64,000 bases of DNA from Octopus vulgaris (taxonomy: Eukaryota), in contig OX597817.1 in NCBI GenBank assembly GCA_951406725.2, positions 173,166,001-173,230,000 of the forward strand. Direction: 5' to 3'. The translations under genes and the position numbers were made by a program. Shown in pieces: positions 1-56,439 of this stretch. The notes beneath the pieces were generated by a model, which saw nothing but the letters and a program-made list of their open reading frames with translations, was not told the origin of the DNA and searched no databases. Each line of letters starts with the position of its first letter. The first letter of the stretch is position 1.

Positions 1-347
1 TGGCCGTCTGCCAGCCTCGTCTGGCACCTGTGTCGGTGGCACATAAAAAACACCATCCAAGCGTGGCCGTCTGCCAGCCTCGTCTGGCACCTGTGTCGGT
101 GGCACATAAAAAACACCATCCGAGCGTGGCCGTCTGCCAGCCTCGTCTGGCACCTGTGTCGGTGGCACATAAAATCACCCACTACACTCTCGGAGTGGTT
201 GGCGTTAGGAAGGGCATCCAGCTGTAGAAACACTGCCACATCTGACTGGCCTGGTGCAGCCTTCGGGCTTCCCAGACCCCAGTTGAACCGTCCAACCCAT
301 GCTAGCATGGAAAGCGGACGTTAAACGATGATGATGATGATGATGAT
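1..347 (+). mobile_element. 3' UTR/tail of the RTE-clade LINE family (or a SINE sharing it), with internal ~59-bp tandem repeats and a (GAT)n tail
   Basis: Same GTGGCAC(A/G)TAAAAA...GGTTGGCGTTAGGAAGGGCATCCAGCTGTAGAAA...CATGCTAGCATGGAAAGCGGACGTTAAAC(GAT)n sequence follows RTE coding remnants at 8555-9053 and 58453-58953. Confidence 0.75.
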
Positions 348-7963: not shown

Positions 7964-9053
7964 AGTTTCCGCTACCTGGGTGACCAACTTAGTAGTGGAG
8001 GTGGATGCTCAGAGAGTATCACCACTAGAATACGAATAGCCTGGGCAAAGTTCAGAAAGCTCCTACCCCTACTGGCGACAAAGGGTCTCTCACTCAGAGT
8101 GAAAGGTAGATTGTATGATGCATGTGTGTGAACTGCCATGCTTCACGGTAGTGAAACATGGACTGTGACTGCAGAGGACATGCGTAGACTTGAAAGAAAT
8201 GAAGCTAGCATGATCCGCTGGATGTGTAATGTCATTGTGCACGCACGACAGAGTGTAAGCACCCTGAGAGAAATGCTGGACATAAGAAGCAACAGATGTG
8301 GTGTGCAAGAGCGACGCTTGCGATGGTATGGTCATGTACTGCAGATGGATGAGGAGAGATGTGTGAAGAAGTGCCACTCCCAAACAGTTGAAGGTATCAA
8401 GGGGAGAGGTAGACCCAGGAAGACATGGGATGAGGTAGTCAAGCATGACCTCAGAGCATTGGGCCTCACTGAGGCAATGGCGAAGGACCGAGATCTCTGG
8501 AGGTATGCTGTAACTGCAAAAACCCGGGCTGCTCTCGGCACCAGTTCCGCATAGCCCCTGCCCATTCAAAGTACCCTGGATTCCAGAACGTCCCGCTGTG
8601 CTTGAGGAGAACTGTTGAGTCAAGTACATGAACATGAACATCGAAATAAATATCAATGGAAATAGTGGTTGTGCTACCTGTGCAGGTGGCACATAAAAAG
8701 CACCATCCGAACGTGGCCGTTGACAGCGCCGCCCCGACTGGCTTCTGTGCCGGTGGCACATAAAAAGCGTCATCCGAACGTGGGCATTGCCAGCGCCGCC
8801 TTGGCTGGCTTCCGTGCCGATGGCAGGTTAAAAGCTCCAACCGATCGTGACCGATGCAGGTGGCACGTAAAAAGCACCCACTACACTCTTGGAGTGGTTG
8901 GCATTAGGAAGGACATCCAGCTGTAGAAACTCTGCCAGATCAGACTGGAGCCTGGTGCAGCCCCTGGCTTCACAGACCCTGGTCGAACCGTCCAACCTGT
9001 GCTAGCGTGGAAACGGACGTTAAACGATGATGATGATGATGATGATGATGATG
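7961..9053 (+). mobile_element. 5'-truncated RTE-clade LINE (RT C-terminus, 3' UTR, (GAT)n tail)
   Basis: FRYLGD..SSGGG..RIRIAWAKF..MLHGSETW..RRLRWYGHV..RGRPRKTW; contains an in-frame stop. Confidence 0.9.
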
Positions 9054-9519: not shown

Positions 9520-12500
9520 GTGTAACGTCCGTTCTCCATGCTAGCATGGGTTGGACGGTTCGACCGGGGATCTGGGAAGACAGAAGGCTGCACCAGGCTC
9601 CAGTCTTATCTGGCAATGTTTCTACAGCTGAATGCCCTTCCTAACGCCAACCACTCCGTGAGTGTAATGAGTTCTTTTTACGTGCCACACGCACAGTACG
9701 TGCCACCCGCAAAGAGATCTAAGAGGAAGCCGAAAGCGGCACCCTCTTTGATCTCTTTCGGCACACTCTTTGATCTCTTTCGGCACCCTATTTGATCTCA
9801 TTCGGAACTCCCCTTTGATCTCTTTTTGGCACCATCTTTGATCTTTTTCGGCACACACTTTGATCTCTTTCGGCACCCTCTTTGATCTCTTTCGGGACTC
9901 CTCTTTGATCTCTTTCGGCACACTCTTTGATCTCTTTCGGCACACTCTTTGATCTCTTTCGGCACCCTCTTTGATCTCTTTCGGCACCCTCTTTGATCTC
10001 TTTCGGCACCCTCTTTGATCTCCTTCGGGATCGTCTTTGATCTCTTTCGACACCCTCTTTGATCTCTTTCGGCACTCCTCTTTGATCTCTTTCGGTACCC
10101 TCTTTGATCTCTTTCGGCACCCTCTTTGATCTCTTTCGGCACCCTCTTTGATCTCTTTCGGCACACTCTTTGATCTCTTTCGGCACCCTCTTTGATCTGT
10201 TTCGGCACTCTCTTTGATCTCTTTCGGCACCCTTTTTGATTTCTTTCGGCACCCTCTTTGATCTCTTTCGATACTCCTCTTTGATCTCTTTCGGCACCCT
10301 CTTTGATCTCTTTCGGCACCCTCTTTGATCTCTTTCGGCACACCCTTTGATCTCTTTCGGTACCCTCTTTGATCTCTTTTGGCACCCTCTTTGATCTCTT
10401 TCGGCACCCTCTTTGATCCCTTTCGGCACTCTCTTTGATCTCTTTCGGCACTCTCTTTGATCTCTTTCGGCACCCTCTTTGATCTCTTTCGGCACCCTCT
10501 TTGATCTCTTTCGTCACACTCTTTGATCCCTTTCGGCACTCTCTTTGATCTCTTTCGATACTCCTCTTTGATCTCTTTCGGCACACTCTTTTTTCTCTTT
10601 CGGCACCCTCTTTGATCCCTTTCGGCACTCTCTTTCATCTCTTTCGATACTCCTCTTTGATCTCTTTCGGCACCCTCTTTGATCTCTTTCGGCACCCTCT
10701 TTGATCTCTTTCGGCACCCTCTTTGATCTCTTTCGGCACCCTCTTTGATCTCTTTCGGTACCCTCTTTGATCCCTTTCGACACCTTCTTTGATCCCTTTC
10801 GGTACCCTCTTTGATCTCTTTCGATACTCCTCTTTGATCTCTTTCGGTACCCATTTGATCTCTTTCGGCACCCTCTTTGATCTCTTTCGGCACACCCTTT
10901 GATCTCTTTCGGCACTCTCTTTGATCACTTTCGGCACTCTCTTTGATCTCTTTCGGCACCCTCTTTGATCTCTTTCGGTACCCTCTTTGATCTCTTTCGG
11001 CACCTTCTTTGATCTCTTTCGGCACCCTCTTTGATCTCTTTGGGTACCCTCTTTGATCTCTTTCGGCACACTCTTTGATCCCGTTCGGCACTCTCTTTGA
11101 TCTCTTTCGATACTCCTCTTTGATCTCTTTCGGCACTCCCTTTGATCTCTTTCGGCACCCTCTTTGATCTCTTTCGGCACCCTCTTTGATCTCTTTCGGC
11201 ACCCTCTTTGATCTCTTTCGGCACCCTCTTTGATCTCTTTCGGCAGCCTCTTTTATCCCGTTCGGCACTCTCTTTGATCTCTTTCGGCACCCTCTTTGAT
11301 CTCTTTCGGTACCCTCTTTGATCTCTTACGGCACCCTCTTTGATCTCTTTCGATACTCCTCTTTGATCTCTTTCGGCACCCTCTTTGATCTCTTTGGGTA
11401 CCCTCTTTGATCTCTTTCGGCACTCTCTTTGATCACTTTCGGCACTCTCTTTGATCTCTTTCAGTACCCTCTTTGATCTCTTTCGGCACACTCTTTGATC
11501 TCTTTCGGCACTCTCTTTGATCTGTTTCGGCACCCTCTTTGATCCCTTTCGGCACTCTCTTTGATCTCTTTCGGCACTCTCTTTGATCTCTTTCGGCACC
11601 CTCTTTGATCTCTTTCGGCACTCTCTTTGATCTCTTTCGGCACCCTCTTTGATCTCTTTCGATACTCCTCTTTGATCTCTTTTGGCACTCTCTTTGATCT
11701 CTGTCGGCACCCTCTTTGATCTCTTTCGGCACCCTCTTTGATCTCTTTCGGCACTCTCTTTGATCTCTTTCGGCACTCTCGTTGATCTCTTTCAGCACCC
11801 TCTTTGATCCCTTTCGGCACCCTCTTTGATCTCTTTCGGCACTCTCTTTGATCTCTTTCGGGACCCTCTTTGATCTCTTTCGGCACCCTCTTTGATCCCT
11901 TTCGGCACCCTCTTTGATCTCTTTTGGCACCCTCTTTGATCTCTTTCGGCACTCTATTTGATCTCTTTCGGCACCCTCTTTGATATCTTTCGGCACCCTC
12001 TTTGATCTCTTTCGGCACCCTCTTTGATCTCTTTCGGCACTCTCTTTGATCTCTTTCGGCACTCTCTTTGATCTCTTTCGGCACCCTCTTTGATCCCTTT
12101 CGGCACTCTCTTTGATCTCTTTCGGCACTCTCTTTGATCTCTTTCGGCACCCTCTTTGATCTCTTTCGGCACCCTCTTTGATCTCTTTCGGCACCCTCTT
12201 TGATCTCTTTCGGCACCCTCTTTGATCTCTTTCGGCACTCTCTTTGATCTCTTTCGGCACCCTCTTTGATCTCTTTCGGCACTCTCTTTGATCTCTTTCG
12301 GCACCCTCGTTGATCTCTTTCGGTACCCTCTTTGATCTCTTTCGGCACCCTCTTTGATCTCTTTCTGGGTGGCACGTACTGTGTTGGTGACACGTACTGT
12401 GTGGGTGGCACGTAAAAAGCACCCACTACACTCACGGAGTGGTTGGCGTTAGGAAGGGCATCCAGCTGTAGAAACATTGCCAGATAAGACTGGAGCCTGG

Positions 12501-15051: not shown

Positions 15052-15104
<53 letters not shown>

Positions 15105-15107
<3 letters not shown>

Positions 15108-15300
15108 TAATCCAAACGGGAAAACAGAAAAAACAACAACACGTGGAACAATTACAGTATTATTATTATTAGGCGCTCAGGAAAATGGAAGAAGGAGGGT
15201 ATGACGTTTCGAGCGGAGCTCTTCGTCGGAAACATAGGAGAAAGAAAGATCCCGAAACGGGAGGACAGAGGAAAAAAAATTGTAGGTAGTCTTCACGAGG
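15105..15300 (-). mobile_element. Solo PLE 3' terminus with hammerhead-like motif (15199-15233)
   Basis: Resembles the reverse complement of about 54900-55105, the end of the GIY-YIG element. Confidence 0.7.
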
Positions 15301-15707
15301 TCACATATATATATAGTGTAATAAATAAAATATATGCATACATACAAACATATATGTACGTACCGACATCTACATGTATATATACATGCATATATAAATA
15401 TATATACGCACAGGAAAACGAAAAAATCAACAGAACGAAAACGGAAAAGACATTTTGTTACAACAGAAGGACAGAGACGTGGAAATAATGATATTAATGG
15501 AAAAATTCAATTTAGTATTAAATCAAATTTCACAATATAAATAAGAGATAAAACCACTATTATGCAATTGAAACGAAGATAGACATAAATAACAAATAAA
15601 ATATCTAGTTATATGTTTTATAAAAATATATTTTATTAGTTATTTATGTTTTGGTTTATGTCTGTCATTGTTTGAATTGCATAATAGTGGTTTTATCTCT
15701 AATTTAT

Positions 15708-16325
15708 CATCATCATCATCATCATCATTTAGCGTCCGTTTTCCATGCTAGCATGGGTTGGACGGTTCAACTGGGGTCTGGGGAGCCCGAAGGCTGCACC
15801 AGGCCAGTCAGATCTGGCAGTGTTTCTACAGCTGGATGCCCTTCCTAACGCCAACCACTCCGAGAGTGTAGTGGGTGATTTTATGTGCCACCGACACAGG
15901 TGCCAGACGAGGCTGGCGAACGGCCACGCTCGGATGGTGTTTTTATGTGCCACCGACACAGGTGCCAGACGAGGCTGGCAGACGGCCACGCTCGGATGGT
16001 GTTTTTATGTGCCACCGACACAGGTGCCAGATGAGGCTGGCGGACGGCCACGATCGGATGGTGTTTGTTACGTCCCCAAAGCACGGAGGCCAGTCTATGC
16101 GGTACTGGCTACAGCCACGTTCGGATGATTTTCTTGTGTGCCACCGGCACTGGTACCACAAAGATACAAATTCCATTGATGTTCATCTATTTTGATTTGT
16201 TTTGATTTGATTTGATTTGATTTTCACTTGCCTCAACAGGTCTTCACAAGTGTCACAAGAAGGAAGGTATGCACAGGTGGACTGACTACGTCCCAGGTAG
16301 GGGCCACGGGTTATGGCCTGACTAG
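15708..16325 (-). mobile_element. RTE-type 3' UTR copy; near-identical sibling at 16645-17150
   Basis: Same family as 1-347; the two copies differ in internal repeat number and in tail ((CAT)n versus (CTT)n on the plus strand). Confidence 0.75.
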
Positions 16326-16389: not shown

Positions 16390-17560
16390 CAGTCTTCTTT
16401 CAGAATTGGCCTGTCTCTATTCACCAGTCTTGGTTGTTTAATTGCAAGTCCACAGATCATTTCATCCAATTGGTTGATGTTTACATCTGCTGTAATTGAC
16501 TTAGCAGGTCTCTTGAAGCTGTAGTTCGATGGCACCAATAATGGACCACCCTACAGACAGCATTAGCTTTTATAGGTGAATATTCTTCTTTGGATTGTGT
16601 TTTGGAACTTTGTCTCTATTCCACCATTGTGCAGAACATTTGCTACTTCTTCTTCTTCTTCTTCTTTCTTTTAACGTCCGCTTTCCATGCTAGCATGGGT
16701 TGGACGGTTCAACTGGGGTCTGGGGAGCCCGAAGGCTGCACCAGGCCAGTCAGATCTGGCAGTGTTTCTACAGCTGGATGCCCTTCCTAACGCCAACCAC
16801 TCCGAGAGTGTAGTGGGTGATTTTATGTGCCACCGACACAGGTGCCAGACGAGGCTGGCGAACGGCCACGCTCGGATGGTGTTTTTATGTGCCACCGACA
16901 CAGGTGCCAGACGAGGCTGACGAACGGCCATGATCGGATGGTGTTTCTTACGTGCCCACAGCACGGAGGCCAGTCGATGCGGTACTGGCTACGGCCACGT
17001 TCGGATGGTTTCCTTGTGTGCCACCGGCACTGGTACCACAAAGATACAAATTCCATTGATGTTCATCTATTTTGGTTTGATTTGATTTGATTTGATTTTC
17101 ACTTGCCTCAACAGGTCTTCACAAGTGTCACAAGAAGGAAGGAAGGTATGCGTTGAAAAGAATTCGTTTTTCAGCACACGTAACAATACGATGCAAAAAT
17201 GGTTCACTTTGAAGCCGTGACAGCAAAGAACAGCAAGTTTCAAGACGTGTCATTTGATGCTTGTTCAGTTCGTGTGGTACCCACTTGTCTAGCTTCTTTG
17301 CCAGTTTGTTTCAGATGGTCCAATAAAGTTGGAATCAAAACATCAAACCTTGCTGCTAGTTCATGTGTAGTCTGAGATGTATCCGTTCCAACTACAGCTT
17401 CCAGCTCATTATTATCCACCTTGGTCTCAGGTCTATCATGGTGCTGATTTTCAAGAGTAAGGTCACCAGACTGGAACTTCCGAAACCATCGATGTACAGA
17501 GTGCAAATTTCCCACATCTTCACCAAACACCTCATTGAAGTTTTGAGCCTGTCTGGGATG
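16390..17560 (-). pseudogene. Degraded mariner transposase interrupted by an RTE-tail insertion (16645-17150); probable 5' end/TIR near 18120-18263
   Basis: RWFRKFQSGD, KLDKWVPHELN, FLHRIVTCAEKRILF, KLMLSVGWS, QLDEM..LAIKQPRLVNR; frameshifts and stops present. Confidence 0.85.
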
Positions 17561-21400: not shown

Positions 21401-22576
21401 CATACATACATACGTACATACATACATACATACGTACATACATACATACATACATACATACATACATACATACATACATACATACATACATACATACATA
21501 CATACATACATACTTACATACAAAAAATACCCTGTTGTTGATGTTGAAATTCCAATGAAGGAGCCTTGGATCTGGGTTAGAAACCGGTTCTTTCTCTATT
21601 GGCAAAAAATCTTGAAATAAACTGAATAAAGACACACATATAAATACTAATGAATTTTCTTCTGGTTATAATTCTTACCTCAAATGTTTCGAATGGTTAA
21701 AATCTATTCGCAACTCATCAGCTCAAATATGACAGCTTTCTCTTAACTACGTGTTCGTCACACTAAACACCCTCTTGGGAAATATTTAAATGGCATTTAT
21801 TTTAATTTATCAATGAAGTGAACAGTTATCTATAAAAATACCATATCTGTTAGTCCTCCGTTGGAAAGGCTTGCTTTGACAGGACTGGGCTTCCCTCAGA
21901 GGGTTTTAATTAGACCCAATGGTTTGGAGTTCAGTCCCACCTTGGACAAGCATTTCTACTATAGCCCTTGGCTAAACTAAGCCTTGCATGGAGGCAGGTG
22001 GCTTAGTGGTTAGGGGTGTTGGACTCATGATTGTAGGATTGTGGTTTTGACTTCTGGACCAGCAGACTCATTGTGTTCTTGAGAAGAACACTTTATTTCA
22101 TGTTGCTCCAGTCCACTCAGCTGGCAAAAATGAGTAATCCTGCGAGGGACTGGTGTCCCGTCCAGGTGGGGAATATACATATGCCTTGAAACTGGGAAAC
22201 CGGTCCTTATGAGTCGGTATGATTCGAGAAGGTAACTTTAACTTAAACCAAAGCCTTGCATGTAGATTTGGTAGACAGAAACTGAAAGAAGCCTGTTGTA
22301 TATGATTATATACAGCACTGGATTAACCATTGAGCAAAATAAGCAGAAGCTAAGAGCATCAAGAGAAGTGGGGCACCACAGAGATGGTATATGGTTTGCA
22401 ACACAAAAGGAAAAAGAAAAAAATCACCTTAAACTCGCTAAAATAATACTCCAAGTGATTTATACAATAGAAAATATAATCTCAAAGTGTTCATGGTGTT
22501 GTAGTTAGGATCTGATTAAAGACTTTGCAATCAAAAACAAGGAGAAAACTTTTCAAATATAAATAAAGTGGAAATA

Positions 22577-29996: not shown

Positions 29997-32130
29997 CATC
30001 ATCATCATCATCATCGTTTAGCGTCCGTTTTCCATGCTAGCATGGGTTGGACGGTTCTACTGGGGTCTGTGAAGCTAGAAGGCTTCATCAGGCCCAGTCA
30101 AATCTGGCAGTGTTTCTACGGCTGGATGCCCTTCCTAACGCCAACCACTCCGTGAGTGTAGTGGGTGCTTTTTACGTGCCACCCGCACTGGTGCCAGACA
30201 GAGCTGGCAAACGGCCACGAACGGATGGTGCTTTTTATGTGCCACCGGCACGAGGGCCAGGCGAGGCTGGCAACGGACACGAAACGGGGCGGTGCTGGCA
30301 ACGGTCGCGAAACGGAAAGTTCTCTTACATGCCACCGGCACTGGTAACACATCTGCAATTTCCATTGATCGATTTCCATTGATCGATTTCGATTCTGATC
30401 GTCACTTGCCTCAACGGGTCTTCACAAGCAGAGTATTGACATGCCACCGGCACTGGTAGCACATCCGCAATTTCCATTGATCGATTTCGATTCTGATCCT
30501 CACTTGCCTCATCACGTCTTCACAAGTAGAGTTTTGTGTCCCAAGAAGGGAAGGTATGCATACGTAGGCTGGCTCCATCCCATGTAGAAGGCCACGGGTT
30601 ATGGACTCACTTTTCCTACCGGGTCTTCTCGCGCACAGCACACTTCCAGAGGTCTCGGTCTCTAGTCATTTCCTCAGTGAGACCTAAAGTTCGAAGGTCG
30701 TGCTTCACCACCTCGTCCCAGGTTTTCCTGGGTCTGCCTCTTCCACAGGTTCCCTCAACCGCTAGGGTGTGGCACTTTTTCACACAACTATCTTCATCCA
30801 TTCTCGCCACATGACCATACCAGCGCAAACGTCTCTCTTGCACACCACAACTGATGCTTCTTAGGTCCAGCTTTTCTCTCAAGGTACTTACACTCTGCCG
30901 AGTGTGAGTACCGGCATTACACATCCATCGGAGCATACTGGCTTCATTTCTAGCGAGCTTACGCATATCCTCAGCAGTCACGGCCCATGTTTCACTGCCA
31001 TGTAGCATGGCTGTTCGTACACACGCATCATACAGTCTGCCTTTCACTCTGTGCGAGAGGCCTTTTGTCACCAGCAGAGGTAAGAGCTCTCTGAACTTTG
31101 CCCAAGCTATTCTTACTCTAGCAGTTACACTTTCAGCACACCCGCCCCCGCTGCTGACTTGGTCACCTAGGTAATGGAAACTATCAACTATTTCTAGTTT
31201 TTCTCCCTGGAAAGTGACGGAAGTTGGTCTCAGAGCATTTTCAGTGTTTATTGTTCCTGAGCATCTGCCACATACAAAAACCATCTTCCTAGTTAGCCTT
31301 CCTTTGACATTGCTGCATCTCTTATGTGTCCATAGCTTACACTTGGTGCATCTTATAGAGTTTCTACCTACACCTTTTCTACAGATCGAGCAGGGCCATC
31401 TACCTGAAGGTGTTTGTGATTTGTCTACCTTCCTACTGATTACGACTTTGGTTTTAGCTAGATTGACTCTGAGGCCCTTCGATTCTAATCCTTGTTTCCA
31501 CACCTGAAACTTCTCCTCCAGTTCTGATAGCGACTCAGCAATTAGAGCAAGGTCATCAGCATAGAGGAGCTCCCAAAGGCATCCTGTCTTGAATTCCTCC
31601 GTTATTGCCTGGAGGACTATGATAAATAGGAGGGGGCTGAGTACTGAGCCTTGGTGGACTCCTACCTCTACCTGGAATTCTTCACTGTACACATTTCCAA
31701 CCCTCACCCTACTAGCGGCGTCCCTGTACATGGCCCGCACAGCTCTCACTAACCATTCATCTATCCCTAGTTTCCTCATTGCCCACCAGATAAGGGATCG
31801 GGGACCCTGTCGAAGGCTTTCTCCATGTCAACAAAAGCCAGGTACAGGGGCTTATCTTTGGCTAGGTATTTCTCCTGCAGCTGCCTTACCAGGAATATAG
31901 CATCAGTAGTACTTTTCCCTGGCACAAACCCAAACTGCATCTCATCTAAACTAACTCTCTCTCTAATTAGTTGGGCTATGACCCTCTCCGTAACCTTCAT
32001 CACCTGGTCCAACAGCTTGATACCTCTGTAGTTATTTGTATCTAGGGCATCACCTTTACCTTTGTAGCAGTTGACTATTATACTGCTACACCAGTCATTG
32101 GGTATGACCCCTTTGTGTATCACCTGATTA
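29997..32130 (-). mobile_element. 5'-truncated RTE-clade LINE: RT ORF remnant (30616-32130, frameshift near 31795) plus 3' UTR
   Basis: NYRGIKLL, QFGF, FVDMEKAFD, GVHQGSVLSPLLF, LLYADDL, YLG, RRLRWYGH, RGRPRKTW; PHD-like Cys cluster. Confidence 0.95.
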
Positions 32131-32204
32131 ATGTATGTATGTATGTATGTATTGTATATATATATGTGTGTGTGTATATGTTTGTGAATATATACTTGCA
32201 TATG

Positions 32205-32258
<54 letters not shown>

Positions 32259-33602
32259 GTGAAGGTGAATGGCTCAGTGGTTAGAATGTCTGGCTCACAG
32301 TCATGAGGTTGTGAGTGTGATTCCCAGACTGGGTTGTGTGTTGTGCTCTTGAGCAAGACACTTTATTTCACGTTGTTCCAGTTCCCTCAGCTGTAGAAAT
32401 GAGTTGTGATGTCACTGGTGCCAAGCTGTATCAGCCTTGAATAACATCGGTGGTGTGGAGAGAGGAAACTGGTATGCATGGGTGACTGCATAAACAACCT
32501 TACTTGGACTTGTGCAATCCCATGGTCATTCATGACTGAACAGGGTCTTTCAATATATATATATATATACTTTATTTAAAAGCAGCAGAAATTCAACAAA
32601 AGCTGTTACTCGGAGTTTCATGTTCAGGAACTTGAAACTCCAAGTAACAGCTTTTGCTGAATTTTGCTGCTTTTAAATAAAGCATATTACTCTACCTCTG
32701 GTATTTGAGTACTCTTTTTTCCACCTTGTTTCACATTTATGTGTTTACTCCGGTATATATATATATATATATATCTTAATAATTACGATGTGCACTCTTC
32801 TATCTCTACTATCCCTTCTCTGTCTATCTCTCTCCCTCTCTTGTTTTTCATCCCTTCTGGTTTTCTCTCCCACCCTTCCCTATTCTTCTCTTCTCTTCTT
32901 CACCATTCCCTTTCTCTCACTCTCCCTCCTTGACTCTCTCGTCACTGACACGCGACGAAAGGGAATCTGTCTTTCTACCCATTTCCTTCCTAAAGACATG
33001 TGCTTATACCTGTCTTCTTTCATAAGCTCGTCCTCCTAGCGTTCATAAAAATTTTCTATCGTCTTGGCTTAACATCCCTCACCGTTTGTTTTTACTGTCT
33101 TGTTCTCACTGTCCTGTTCTTGTTTCCACTTTCACCCGCTGCAAAAAATCCCAAATTTTATCTAATTTGCTTTGCGTGAAGGTCTGTTTCAATGAAATCA
33201 CGTATTGTCCTTGCCTTCAAAACGTGGAGTAGATGAAACAGGGACAACTGATAAAGAGAAATTTCTTTATGTTGCATGTCTCGTTCCTCTGTTTGTTTTT
33301 TTCGTTGTTCAAAAAAAGTTTGTTTTCATGTTTTCGTTTCTTATTGTGTTCAACGTTTTTTTGATGTCCTGTTCCCATATATGCACATATATATACATAT
33401 ATATGTAGGTATGTACATATATGTATGTATATATGAATATATTTATATATTATTTATATTATTTATATATATATAGAGAGAGAGAGATTCAGATGAATAT
33501 AGTACTTAAGTCGAGGCACCAGAATTTAGTACAGTATTATCCATACAATTTCAAAGTAAGGTGATTAAAGTCAAAATATGCAACAAGGATATCCAGCGGT
33601 AA

Positions 33603-39273: not shown

Positions 39274-39318
39274 AACACAACGTTTCGGCTGGTATAACTC
39301 CAGCCTTCATCAGGTGTC
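39274..39318 (-). ncRNA. Minimal type I hammerhead ribozyme
   Basis: GACAC-CTGATGA-A-GGCTGG AGTTATA CCAGCC-GAAA-CG-TT-GTGTT; perfect 6-bp stem II, palindromic stem III. Confidence 0.75.
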
Positions 39319-43111: not shown

Positions 43112-44006
43112 ACACACACACATATGTATATGTTGGGCTTCTTTCAGTTTCTCTCCACCAATCCACTCACAAAGTTTGGTTGGCTGAAGGCAACAACAGA
43201 AGATACGTGCTCAAAGTGCCATGCAGTGGGACTGAACCCAGGTCCATATTATTGAGAAATAATCTTCTTACCACACACCCATGCCTGTGCCTATATATAT
43301 ACACGTCAAGAGCACCAGCCCTCTTCCACATGCACATACAAACTCTCTTATACACACACATGCACACCTTCATTTTGGGATCACCACTACTTTATTATCT
43401 TCCCTTCTCCCTAGCTCTCCTGTGTGACCCTTCTGTCTGGCATTTGCTATGATAGATCGCTAGCCACTACACATTTTCTTTTGTTTCCTCTCCTTGCTTC
43501 TCTCTGTGTTCCTTTCTGTGGAAGAGCATAGGCTTGAAATGTTAAAGACTTTTTCACTTCCCGAGCGTTATACTAATACATCTGTTTGTTATCTACACCA
43601 CCTGTCTTCATCTTTTTTTTTTGTGAATTCTCCCTATATATATATATAAAACAAAGTTATTTTATTCCACAGGGGTAGAAATATAGGAAATAGAAGTTGA
43701 AAATGCACTGAGATGTGGCTTATGTCACAGCTGCAACATAAGCCACATCTTTCTATTTCAACTTTTTGAAAATCAGTGTAAACTGTGAAACCGGTTAAAT
43801 CTTTCAATATAATGATAAAAAAATATTTTAACTATTCTCAGTGCAAATTCAACTTTTATTTTTCCTATATGTATATTCTTTTTTTGGAACAGTGAAGCTT
43901 GAAGCAGATAAAGATGTAAATAAATAGCATGTAAATATTAGGTTTCAAACACCCTTTGGATAGAAAAAGGTGAAGACTGCCCATGAACATTTTGTGTGTG
44001 TGTGTG

Positions 44007-44048
<42 letters not shown>

Positions 44049-44067
44049 TATGAGTGCGTGTGCGTGT

Positions 44068-44925
44068 TTGGTGTAATACCCAATGACTGGTACAACAGCA
44101 TAATTGTTAGCTGCTACAAGGGTAAGGGTGATGTTTTAGATAGAAGCAATTATAGAGGCATCAAACTCCTAGACCAGGTGATGAAAATTACAATGACGGT
44201 TATAGCCCAATTAATTAAGAGCAGAATTAGGGTAGATGAAATGCAGCTCTGCTTTGTCCAGGGGAGAAGCACTACTGACGCTATTTTCATAGTCAGGCAA
44301 CGGCAAGGGAAGTACTTAGCTACGAAGAAACCATTATACTTGGCATTCCTTGATCTAGATAAAACTTTCGATAGAGTACCCTGTTGTGTGATATGGTGGG
44401 CTTCGAGGAGGCTAGAGATAGACAAGTGGCTGGTGAAAGCTGTACAGGCCATGTACAGAGACACTGTCAATAAGGTGAGAGTTAACCATGAGTACAGCGA
44501 AGAATTTGCAAGAAAGAAGACTGCACTGGTTTGGTCATATGATGCAGATGGATGCTGACAGCTCCATAAAGAAGTGCCAAGCTCTCAAAGTAGATGGAAC
44601 ATGTGTAAGCAGAGGACCCAGGAAGATATGGGACGGAGTACTGAAGAATGACCTTTGGATGCCGAACTGTTCAGGCGAGCTGACAAGGGGCCAGGATGCC
44701 TGGTACCTTGCTGTACTCAAGAAGACCCGAGCACTACAGCAGAAGTGTTAAATCTAGTTCTCCCTGGTAGAGAGGATTGACTAGCAAGAGTCCTGTGTCA
44801 GTGCCATGTGAAATGCACTTATGACAGTGCTACATAAAAGCACTCATGAGGTGCCACTTAAAAGTGCCTGTGAGGTGTCATGTTAAAATATCTATACGGT
44901 GCCATGTGAAAGCACTCATGCAGAG
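44068..44925 (+). pseudogene. Internally deleted RTE LINE remnant with ~24-bp repeats in its 3' UTR
   Basis: GVIPNDW..NYRGIKLL..DLDKTFDRVP..YSEEF fused to QERRLHWFGH; the QG and YADD motifs are missing. Confidence 0.85.
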
Positions 44926-51481: not shown

Positions 51482-51873
51482 CTATGTGAATAATATATAG
51501 TCTAATGACTAATTCATTTTTGTAATAGGCCACTGGTAATAATAATTTCTTATTACCCTATTGTTATTTATATATATATATATATATGAATATATGTATG
51601 TATATATGAATAATATGAATGAACAGTCACATTTCAGTACAACATATGTTTTGAAAAATAAAAGTCCAGCAAATTATATGTGCAATCATGTAATTATGTT
51701 ATAATGTAGGGGTAATCAGTCTTTTTGTCAGGTACATGACTGTTTATAATTATAATCAATTTTACATTGAAGGATATGTGATAAAAAAACGTGTGAGTCA
51801 ATTAGAAGGCAAGGAGGAGTGATCAAGAAGTTTTTCAAGCAACCAATCAATCACGTTTACACATGTGTATGTA

Positions 51874-51919
<46 letters not shown>

Positions 51920-51949
51920 TGTGTGTCTGTGTGTGTATATGTATATAAA

Positions 51950-52267
51950 TATCACTCTTTTACGTGCACCTCGTCTGGCCTTATTTACTGCATTAAATGC
52001 AACCTATGCGGGATGCTGTATGTAGGTCAGACGGGACGCCGGTTGTCCGACCGTTTCACTGAACACTTGAGGGACGTTCGCCTACACTCTTTTTCTCCCG
52101 TCGCACGCCACTTCCGCTCGGCCGGCCATTCCCGAGATGACATCTCAGTGTTTGGTCTCGCCCCCCACAATGGTCGCCCACTTTCCAGGCTCCACTTGGA
52201 GCAACGCTACATCTTCACCCTACAAACTACCACCCCACACGGACTTAACACAGCCCCCTCCTCTTGA
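51950..52267 (+). pseudogene. PLE GIY-YIG endonuclease domain (truncated ORF)
   Basis: FTCTSSGLIYCIKCNLCGMLYVGQTGRRLSDRFTEH..VARHF..H..EQRYIFTLQT..PHGLN: LIY-YVG motif with CCHH residues. Confidence 0.9.
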
Positions 52268-55101
52268 GATCGGTTTTTTTTTTTTTTTTTTTCGGACACA
52301 CCACCCACACACACCCACCCACCTACCTCCCACACGCCTGTTCACACACACACATACGTAGACCCATCTACGTACATACATTCACACATTTAATCACACA
52401 CACTTACAGACACACATGCACATACACACACACATACATACATACACACACGCATACATACTTACACACACACACACACACACACAGACATACATACACA
52501 CATACACACACACATACATACGCACATACATACACACACACTCACACACACACACCGCACGTACATACTTCACACACACACACATGCACACATACATGTA
52601 GGCACATACATACATACATACCCACACATGCACACCCGTACACTGAATGCACACACACATACACCTTTTTGCATCCAGGCAGCCCCACCCTCTTTTCTGC
52701 TTTCCGGTTTTGGCTGATGGATCCTCGGTTCTCGCGTAGCGGTGCGTTCGAGGGCCTTTGCGCTCGCGCGCCTTGGCGCGCGCTGGGGCTCGGTCGGCCC
52801 CTTTGGGCTTGCGTTGTACTGCTTGTGCGTTGTGTGCGTGAGCGCGCTTCGTGTGTGTGGGCTTGCTTCGGATGTGCGCATGCGTATGTTTGCATACATA
52901 CCCACACACTCGCATGCATCCCTACCCACATACATACACGCACACCTACTCACACACACACATACACACACACACATACCCGCACACACACACACATACA
53001 TACATACATACACACACATACCCACTTCAGACATACACACACACAGACATACACCCATACACTCACACTCACACGCATACACACACACACATACACACGC
53101 ACACGTACACACACACACACACACACACCACACATACATACATCTACACACTCACGCCTACACACATACATACACACATACATAAACACACACACATACA
53201 CACACACATACACACACACACGCACACACACATACATACATACACCCATATACATACACACACACATACCTACATACTCCTATACGCACATACATACACA
53301 CAGACATACACACATACACACTCACACAAACATACACACACACATACTTACACACACACTCACCTGCACGCGCACACACATGCATGACAAACACCCATAC
53401 ACTCACACTCACATACGCACACACCAACATAAACACGCACACGCACACACACACCTACACTCCCACACACATACACACGCACCTACATACACACACGCAC
53501 GCATACACACATACATTACACACGTACACACACACCTACATACACATGCATACACACACACACACAAACATGCACGGACACACCCAGACATACATACATA
53601 CACCTATATACACACGCCCACACACCTACATACACACACATATACACACGCCCACACAGCTACATACACACACATACATACACACATACACGGACACACC
53701 CATACATACTTACATACATACACCTATACACACACGCCTACACACCTACACACACACATGCATACACACACACATGTACGCACATCACACACATATACGC
53801 ACATACATATATACCCACACACATGCACACACACACACATACGCACATGCATGCACGCATGCACACGCGCACACCTACACGCATACACACACACACACGC
53901 ACGTACACATACATACATACACACACGCATACATACACCCATACACATACATGCATCCTACACACACATACATACACACTCACACATACATACACACACA
54001 CGCACTCACTCACACACCTGTATGTTCGCGCACACACATGCACATACACACACTTCCCCACACCCACACGTACATACATACACACTCATACACATACACA
54101 CACACACACACACACGGACATACATCTATGCACACACATATATACACACATACTCACATACATTCATCGGACACACTGCCACCCAGACATACACACAGAC
54201 ACACTCACACATCCACACACACACATACGTACGCGCACACTCGCAGGCGCGCGCACACACGCGCTTGCGCCGGTTCGCGCACGCATGCGCGCCGCATGCA
54301 CCTCGCCCTTGGACCCGACGAGACCTCCCGCCCGTTCCTGGGATGTCGCTTGTCGTTGGGTTTTCCCACGCCCGTCTCCGCGGGACCACTCTTCCATCTT
54401 CCCCTCCGCTGGAGTCCTTTTCCTTAACCCCCCCTTTTTTTCGTTACACACACGCGCACACATATACACACATTGCTTAAACATATACATTACTCTTACA
54501 CACATTCAATCTACTCGCCATTAATACTACCACGACACTGGACACACACACACTCTACTACTCAACACACGCTGGCACGCTACATACGCCCCCACCCCTT
54601 CCCCTCCCTCCCTTCCTCCTTCCTCCCTTTTCTTACTACTGACCTTTGTCTGCTATGCTGCTGCTATGCTGACCACCGTCTCGCCCTACCTCACACGCCT
54701 ACACACAGACGCACACACTAACACATACATATATTTTTTGTTTTTTTATCTCGCCTCACACACACACATACACACACGCACACGCACACACTCACACATA
54801 CACACACATCTGTTGCGTTACCAACCTTGTCTCCACTCTTTTGCCTTTAAAAACCCACTTTGCTCTTGTTATCGTAAACATCCGCCTTTCACCATGTGTA
54901 ACCCCTAAACACCAGTCGTTTTTTTCTCTATCTCCGTTGCCCGCTCTGGGATCTTTCTTTCCTCTCTCTTCCTTCTTTATGTTTCCGACGAAGAGCTCCG
55001 CTCGAAACGTCATACCTCCCTGCTTCCATTTCCTGAGCGCCTATTAATAATAATACTGTAATTGTTCCATTGTTGTTGTTTTTTTGTTTCCCGTTTGGAT
55101 T

Positions 55102-55105
<4 letters not shown>
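51950..55105 (+). mobile_element. 5'-truncated Penelope-like element: GIY-YIG endonuclease C-terminus, long CA-rich 3' region, hammerhead-like motif (54981-55015) and tail
   Basis: GIY-YIG peptide, then low-complexity UTR, then CCGACGA-A-GAGC TCC GCTC-GAAACGTC; ends at (TA)n. Confidence 0.75.
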
Positions 55106-55153
<48 letters not shown>

Positions 55154-56089
55154 TAGACAAAATGAGATAACAAAGCAAAGGACATTTATAAGGAAAAAGA
55201 TACAGATACAGATACCCTTTATCAGAGACGATGTGAGATGGTTAAATAGAGGTAAATATTTGAGTCCGAAATAAGGAATTATTATGGAAAAGGAGGAGAT
55301 AGGGAATATAGAGGGAAATGAGAGAATGGAAGTAGAAATAAAATATAAAATATTGTAGTTGCAGTTCTATTATTCGAGTAAAGTGGTGTATGGAAGTGGA
55401 AAGAAAGTTTCCTGTACATGGTATGTAAGTTCCAGTGGTAGTTCATGTTTAGTCATTTCAAAGTATGGAGCCATGGATTCTATGTTGCCCATTCCAAGGG
55501 GCTTTGAGAATGTATTGGTAGTATTTGTTGATAGATGGTGGGGGAAGGATGTGTATGATTAGAATGAGGAGATAGGTCAAAATGAAGACACGAAGAGAAA
55601 ATGAGAGGGAGAAAGTAAAAAAAGAAAAAGGACAAAAAATAAATATATAAATAAAAAGAGGTAGAAAGAGAGAAAAAAGAGAAAGAAAATTGAAAAGAGT
55701 GAAAAGAAAATAAAAAATTGAAAAAAGGGTGAAAGAAGTGAGAAAAGGAGCGTTAGTTGGTGGTCAAGATAATGTGAGGGGAGAATGGAAGAGGATGGGG
55801 TAGGGGGGATAGGAAGAGATTAGAAGGTAAGGAGTGAATAAGTGCGAGATATATGAGTTGGGGGTAATATGACAGGGCTGCATTAAGGGATTGTTAGTGA
55901 AAAGGTATGGGTTGGGTGATACCAAAGTGAGTAGTTATTCTAGTAGTAAAATTTAAAGTGGAGTGAAGAATACAAGGATGTCAAATTTTTATAAATAGAT
56001 CTATGAGATAGGTTAGTGAGAATGGCAGGAATCAGAGAAGAGGAAAGAAAGTATAATGACATATGTACGCGTGCATATGTCATTATGCA

Positions 56090-56339: not shown

Positions 56340-56439
56340 NNNNNNNNNNNNNNNNNNNNNNNNNNNNNNNNNNNNNNNNNNNNNNNNNNNNNNNNNNNNN
56401 NNNNNNNNNNNNNNNNNNNNNNNNNNNNNNNNNNNNNNN
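56340..56439. other. Assembly gap (100 N)
   Basis: Run of N. Confidence 1.

What the first reader, a model, noticed from the sequence alone, without database searches (positions are those of the whole stretch)
54230..54420. Second, partially A-to-G-converted island in the same PLE 3' region
Seen: (CA)n-like text turns into CGCGCACAC..GCGCGCGCACACACGCGC. G-to-A reversion gives G-free sequence like the flanks (ACACACACACTCACAAACACACAC...). Conversion is partial, unlike the first island. Inference: a second editing cluster on the same strand, which argues against a one-off insertion of GC-rich DNA.
Basis: partly seen in the sequence, partly recalled or inferred. Interest (0 to 1): 0.7.

Follow-up and report, generated by a model that had tools for sequence, protein, structure and literature searches.

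The report
Possible RNA-editing scar in a retrotransposon
A short patch in the tail of an octopus-type jumping gene has most of its A letters replaced by G, as if an edited RNA had been copied back into the genome, but without other copies of the element or raw reads this cannot yet be told from the element's normal sequence.

Summary
The G-rich, A-poor patch is real in the window (54229-54414: 51 G, 21 A; flanks 146 G, 832 A). It lies in the 3' region of a 5'-truncated Penelope-like element, on its sense strand. It has two halves. The first (54229-54306) is a CA tract whose purine skeleton is intact, with about 60% of A read as G, scattered at random; A>G is the best of 12 substitutions by 31 bits. 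The second (54307-54414) is not CA-like after reversion; A>G gains only 4.4 bits and 10 of its 27 G pair with C in a predicted hairpin that is not significant. The 5'-neighbour trend fits ADAR but is not significant. No dsRNA partner, family copy or read-level confirmation was obtained. Best reading: ADAR-edited element RNA written into DNA by reverse transcription, in this copy or an ancestor (0.5). Rivals: native family sequence (0.3), assembly error (0.13). If true, a variant of what is known from avian retroviruses, here in an invertebrate Penelope-like element.

The parts
51864..51947 (.). (TG)n microsatellite at the 5' junction of the truncated element; can pair with any CA tract of the element
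51950..52267 (+). C-terminal GIY-YIG endonuclease fragment of a Penelope-like element, ending at a stop codon
   Evidence: PF01541 E 4e-4, 21 bits, just under the 22.6 cut-off; relatives include RT-bearing proteins P0009, P0012, P0015; best hit 69% identity to an Octopus bimaculoides GIY-YIG protein P0019
52293..52660 (+). degenerate CA-rich tract of the 3' region
52678..52892 (+). island 1: 77 G, 11 A, no AA dinucleotide in 52701-52890
52893..54228 (+). long degenerate CA-rich tract, G/(A+G) 0.11
54229..54306 (+). island 2a: CA tract with about 60% of A positions read as G, randomly scattered
   Evidence: A>G +40.9 bits, next best substitution +10.0; runs test 17 vs 16.1 expected, longest (CG)n is 3
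54307..54414 (+). island 2b: non-repeat tract, 27 G and 10 A, only moderately G-enriched over the element's own non-repeat tracts
   Evidence: p 0.008 vs native tracts, p 0.015 vs ORF; A>G +4.4 bits, T>C and A>C +3.3
54311..54363 (+). predicted hairpin, 19 pairs: 10 G-C, 5 A-U, 4 G-U (all four G on the 5' arm)
   Evidence: not significant: 14 of 200 shuffles and 24 of 200 simulated conversions fold as well
54985..55008 (+). minimal hammerhead-like core (pattern match only; second base of the core is C, not U)
   Evidence: pattern; no Rfam hammerhead hit at E up to 1
55107..55151 (.). (TA)n microsatellite at the 3' end of the element
15059..15249 (-). second copy of the element's 3' end, 91.7% identical over 193 columns; diverges upstream and gives no usable reference for the island

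Best explanation
The element's sense RNA was partly double-stranded, ADAR deaminated many adenosines in two stretches of the 3' region, and the element's reverse transcriptase copied the inosines as G into a new genomic insertion. Island 2 is then an originally CA-rich tract plus an adjoining non-repeat tract that already held many G. The event may be private to this copy (about 0.35) or inherited from an edited ancestor, so that a subfamily carries it (about 0.15). Shown: composition, strand, direction and random scatter in 54229-54306. Inferred: the unedited parent, the duplex, the enzyme and the germline timing.
For: Purine fraction and T/C ratio unchanged while A/G flips. A>G is the best of 12 single substitutions for 2a (+40.9 bits vs +10.0), for the whole island (+39.2 vs +16.8) and for island 1 (+56.3 vs +40.2). 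G is scattered, not in slippage runs. Rare flank motifs recur with G in place of A (CTTAC 5 of 5 in flanks, CTTGC 1 of 1 in 2a). Both islands are on the ORF strand. G share by 5' neighbour in island 2: A 3/3, T 9/10, C 29/42, G 10/17; in 2b 7 of 10 retained A follow G and implied conversion is 1.0, 1.0, 0.59, 0.13 after A, T, C, G, the order expected from 5'-G depletion (PMC5625713, passages). No AA remains in either island; invertebrate ADARs prefer A downstream (same paper). Coleoid editing is widespread in repeats (PMC9068888, passages).
Against: No parent or consensus was available, so no single G is shown to be a change. 2b gains only 4.4 bits (1.0 after penalty); island 1 fits a free composition as well as A>G (54.0 vs 52.5 penalised bits) and has a T excess (p 2e-7) that A>G does not explain. 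Neighbour effect not significant: 5'G vs others p 0.24 (island 2), 0.056 (2b), 0.11 (island 1); GGGA is native in the family further 3'. Implied conversion of 60% (2a) to 80% (island 1) exceeds the 'nearly 50%' reported for edited retroviruses (PMC12925331 section 30). No specific duplex: the upstream (TG)n pairs with 2a (-91 kcal/mol) no better than with 28 unconverted CA windows (-89 to -115); pairing of 2a with island 1 is matched by 170 of 1000 simulated conversions.
Confidence: 0.5

Rival explanations
1. The island is ordinary family sequence: a G+C-rich, structured or promoter-like segment of the PLE terminal repeat region, shaped by gradual change and not by an editing burst.
For: Non-repeat tracts of the element already have G/(A+G) 0.43-0.53. 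2b is nearly compatible with them. Ten of its 27 G pair with C in a hairpin with pair probabilities of 0.96 or more for 16 of 19 pairs. Whole island folds at z -2.7. Island 2 aligns loosely end to end with the pre-hammerhead region of the second copy (79 identities, 75 transitions in 191 columns), mostly T>C (47) rather than A>G (17). PLE terminal repeats can hold the promoter (PMC8557442, passages).
Against: Simulated A>G conversion of flanks reaches z -2.7 in 2 of 30 trials; hairpin not significant; the alignment to copy 2 is borderline (5 of 300 and 16 of 300 in the two stricter controls, one of 16 pairings tried). It does not explain why only A is lost from a CA tract, at random positions, in both islands.
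Confidence: 0.3
2. Sequencing or assembly error: purine miscalls in a low-complexity region about 1.9 kb from a scaffold gap.
For: Gap at 56340-56439. The best public run holds 0.75 of the sampled words of 51950-55900; both islands together touch 11.2% of the 31-mers, so they could lie in the missing part. Clustered same-type mismatches can be a sequencing artefact (PMC2873906, passages; that error is G-to-A in capillary traces). A/G confusion in nanopore reads is recalled, not from a call.
Against: None of 17 other CA-type microsatellites in the same window shows it; only one direction of change; 18 of 24 listed runs, from 7 studies, hold half or more of the words, so most of the stretch is real sequence. 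The shares do not say which words are held.
Confidence: 0.13
3. A DNA-level or polymerase process: misincorporation of G opposite T during second-strand synthesis, ADAR acting on an RNA:DNA hybrid, or microsatellite slippage of CG units.
For: Would give the same direction on the same strand and needs no long duplex (inference).
Against: Slippage is disfavoured: longest (CG)n is 3 and the runs test is random. Misincorporation does not predict the 5'-neighbour trend. Editing of hybrid DNA in retroelements is stated as unknown (PMC12925331, passage).
Confidence: 0.07

Closest known systems
ADAR A-to-G hypermutation of avian retroviruses (Rous-associated virus, avian leukosis virus; Felder 1994, Hajjar and Linial 1995, as summarised in PMC12925331 section 30)
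   Same: Clustered A-to-G in a non-coding terminal region of a retroelement, carried through reverse transcription.
   Different: Here an endogenous invertebrate Penelope-like element; higher apparent conversion; no inverted repeat found; no parent to compare with.
APOBEC DNA editing of LTR retrotransposons (PMC4866542; PMC2873906)
   Same: Deaminase footprint fixed in a genomic retroelement copy, strand-specific and clustered.
   Different: Opposite direction (G-to-A on the sense strand), acts on cDNA, reported absent from 19 invertebrate genomes.
A-to-I hyper-editing of repeat RNA in metazoans and coleoids (PMC5625713; PMC9068888)
   Same: Repeat-derived substrate, clustered A-to-G, depletion after G.
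   Different: Known at RNA level against an unedited genome; here the change would be in the genome itself.
Canonical endonuclease-bearing Penelope-like elements (PMC8557442; PMC4209133; PMC11167929)
   Same: C-terminal GIY-YIG, hammerhead-like core near the 3' end, 5' truncation, microsatellite flanks.
   Different: 2.7 kb between stop codon and hammerhead core, mostly degenerate CA tracts, with two G-rich islands; no consensus for this family was found.

Membership tests
Penelope-like element (EN+) | GIY-YIG endonuclease at the C-terminus of the ORF | tested here: met
   PF01541 E 4e-4, 1.6 bits under the cut-off; 17 and 15 relatives, three with RT; GIY-YIG tyrosines and catalytic-region residues aligned
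Penelope-like element (EN+) | Telomerase-like RT in the same ORF | not testable with these tools
   Copy is cut at a (TG)n tract upstream of the endonuclease; RT seen only in relatives
Penelope-like element (EN+) | Hammerhead motif in the terminal repeat | tested here: inconclusive
   Pattern match at 54985 and in the second copy; no Rfam hit; the fold of 54950-55040 does not give it
Penelope-like element (EN+) | Pseudo-LTR or inverted partial copy at the 5' end | tested here: not met
   Self-BLAST and inverted-repeat search show none at this truncated locus apart from microsatellite pairing (only the 25 longest of 909 pairs shown)
ADAR-hyperedited retroelement copy fixed in DNA | Clustered A-to-G differences from the parent or consensus | not testable with these tools
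   No genome held; no family DNA in three collections or in the supplements that could be searched
ADAR-hyperedited retroelement copy fixed in DNA | A-to-G on the element's sense strand, above all other substitution types | tested here: met
   Against a flank model: clearly for 54229-54306, marginally for 54307-54414
ADAR-hyperedited retroelement copy fixed in DNA | Depletion of editing after a 5' G | tested here: inconclusive
   Right order, p 0.056 to 0.24
ADAR-hyperedited retroelement copy fixed in DNA | A double-stranded partner covering the cluster | tested here: inconclusive
   Local hairpin and pairings with (TG)n and island 1 do not beat matched controls; the donor locus is unknown
ADAR-hyperedited retroelement copy fixed in DNA | Present in genomic reads | not tested
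   No reads or contigs were laid on the island; word shares do not resolve it
APOBEC-edited retroelement | G-to-A on the sense strand | tested here: not met
   Excess is of G and loss of A on the ORF strand

The most novel reading that the evidence does not exclude
In octopus, germline ADAR editing of Penelope-like element RNA is copied back into the genome often enough to leave heritable A-to-G islands in individual copies, which record where the transposing RNA was double-stranded and may over cycles reshape the family's 3' region.
Probability: 0.3. Interest if true: 0.7.

Novelty: new variant of a known kind. Interest (0 to 1): 0.42.

Why it matters
If real, it is a route from RNA editing to heritable DNA change in the animal group best known for editing, a direct sign that ADAR meets retrotransposon RNA in the germline, and a footprint of RNA structure in a poorly understood element. 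A genome-wide screen of PLE copies would test it in hours. Six literature searches aimed at ADAR-edited retroelement copies fixed in genomes listed no such report for Penelope-like elements or invertebrates; only the top 6 to 25 hits of each were seen, and the library lacks most subscription papers. If the family is natively like this, the finding is ordinary.

Tried and rejected
No whole genome held. Family DNA not found: exact motif scans of metagenome, viral and prokaryote contigs gave 0; the protein-guided scan gave 1 distant locus at 38%. Island translations: 1 chance repeat hit in one frame, none in a second frame, no Pfam hit in 6 of 6 frames; 2 of 6 frames were searched in the big collections, and the control (best family protein only 69%) shows that this family is poorly represented there, so these blanks mean little. 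No match in plasmids or phages; no Rfam match overlapping the island. Supplements: no family motif in those of PMC8557442, PMC13282606 and files 1-4 and 7 of PMC9115989; three more files of that paper were not searched, one archive gave almost no text and two were too large, so transcriptome sequences that could settle the question were not seen. Rejected: third HMM segment 54915-54951 as an editing island (its G-rich words are shared with the second copy); island 2 as a duplicate of the element's own 3' end (56 of 300 in the local shuffle); island 1 and 2 as arms of one long stem; CG slippage; inversion of a flank for island 1 (reverse strand is not G-poor).

Full report
Context. The finding lies in a 5'-truncated Penelope-like element on the + strand. 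A (TG)n tract is followed by a GIY-YIG fragment, 51950-52267 (PF01541 E 4e-4), whose relatives include RT-bearing proteins (3 of 17 hits) and, as best hit, an Octopus bimaculoides protein at 69%. That the window is from an octopus is my inference from this. A 2.8 kb 3' region of degenerate CA tracts and pyrimidine-rich tracts follows, then a hammerhead-like core at 54985 (pattern only; no Rfam hit) and (TA)n at 55107-55151. A second copy of the last 190 bases lies at 15059-15249 on the - strand (91.7%) but diverges upstream.

Observation. The island is there. An HMM on purines delimits 54229-54414. None of 17 other CA-type microsatellites in the window exceeds G/(A+G) 0.19 in 77 bases.

The island is two things. 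54229-54306 is a CA tract with G in place of about 60% of A: a forward model trained on the element's CA tracts gains 40.9 bits from A>G, 10.0 from the next of 12 substitutions and 6.6 from a free composition; 55 of 71 purine-collapsed 8-mers occur in the flanks against 23 raw; G is scattered at random and the longest (CG)n is 3. 54307-54414 is non-repeat text. The element's own non-repeat tracts have G/(A+G) 0.43-0.53, so 0.73 is a modest excess (p 0.008) and A>G gains 4.4 bits. It holds a predicted 19-pair hairpin, 54311-54363, in which 10 G pair with C and 4 G, all on the 5' arm, pair with U; all 5 A in the stem follow a G. This is what editing of a native hairpin would leave, but 14 of 200 shuffles and 24 of 200 simulated conversions fold as well.

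Inserted foreign DNA is unlikely: for the whole island the A>G model beats a free composition (39.2 vs 27.9 bits), whereas 18 of 18 GC-rich control stretches from the window go the other way; there is no match in plasmids, phages, Pfam or Rfam.

ADAR signature. G share by 5' neighbour runs A 3/3, T 9/10, C 29/42, G 10/17, the known order, but 5'G against the rest gives p 0.24; pooling both islands, 5'G against 5'T gives p 0.049, one of several contrasts tried. No AA is left in either island. Implied conversion (0.6 for 2a, 0.8 for island 1) is above the nearly 50% reported for edited avian retroviruses. Island 1 is equivocal between A>G and a free composition and has unexplained extra T.

Duplex. 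The upstream (TG)n tract pairs with 2a with 39 Watson-Crick and 23 G-U pairs, but pairs equally with 28 unconverted CA windows, so it does not explain the position. Pairing of 2a with island 1 beats a purine shuffle (7 of 1000) but not the two better controls (118 and 170 of 1000). The relevant duplex would have been in the donor transcript, which is unknown; PLEs often carry inverted partial copies.

Outside evidence. No genome is held. Of 24 listed runs, 18 from 7 studies hold half or more of the 418 sampled words of 51950-55900, the best 0.75; the best may be the source sample. The islands touch 11.2% of the 31-mers, so these shares fit both presence and absence. No reads were laid. No sister copy was found in contig collections, protein collections or readable supplements. 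A loose end-to-end alignment of the island to the second copy's pre-hammerhead region is borderline and dominated by T>C, a small point for native sequence.

Mechanism and odds. Most likely, ADAR edited partly paired stretches of the element's sense RNA and reverse transcription fixed inosine as G, in this copy or an ancestor (0.5). Native family sequence 0.3, assembly error 0.13, DNA-level or polymerase process 0.07. These are judgements, not computed values.

Literature seen. Passages: PMC8557442 (plus supplement search), PMC2873906, PMC5625713, PMC4866542, PMC9068888, PMC4209133, PMC9115989 (plus partial supplement search), PMC12925331 (plus section 30). First third of the text and supplement search: PMC13282606 (PLEs 6.83% of the O. 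vulgaris assembly). Abstract only: PMC11167929. Term search with no relevant hit: 10.64898/2026.07.22.740005. The 1994 and 1995 retrovirus papers were seen only as cited. Two earlier AI notes of this scan describe sense-strand A-to-G copies of an L1 and of a provirus in other genomes; they are unchecked by me, raise the prior and lower the novelty, and are not support.

Verdict. Real compositional feature, half of it well described as A-to-G conversion; cause unproven for lack of a parent sequence and reads. Interest 0.42.

Noticed in passing
window 52293-54809: The element's CA tracts hold more G (105 G, 766 A) than other CA microsatellites of the window (82, 1491; p 3e-9), and purine runs in the long tract almost always end in A (17 of 18; p 0.004): possibly light editing over the whole 3' region, or just older sequence.
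   Followed up: partly
window 15059-15410: Second PLE 3' end with the same hammerhead-like core but an AT-rich upstream part of similar layout; probably another subfamily.
   Followed up: partly
window 9737-12365: Satellite of 22-base unit, about 119 copies, 90% matches.
   Followed up: no
window 30616-32273 and 43974-44558: Fragments of an RT-bearing LINE with a PHD-like finger (Pfam RVT_1 E 2e-15); RTE type by recall.
   Followed up: no
window 1-174, 8678-8849, 15874-16066, 16816-17038, 30164-30283: Dispersed GC-rich repeats with internal 62-67 base tandem units, likely a SINE family; used only as controls.
   Followed up: no
window about 39290-39313 and 21690-21721, minus strand: Two further hammerhead-like pattern matches.
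   Followed up: no
window 56340-56439: 100-base scaffold gap 1.9 kb downstream of the island, preceded by a Tc1/mariner-like coding remnant (by eye, recalled).
   Followed up: no
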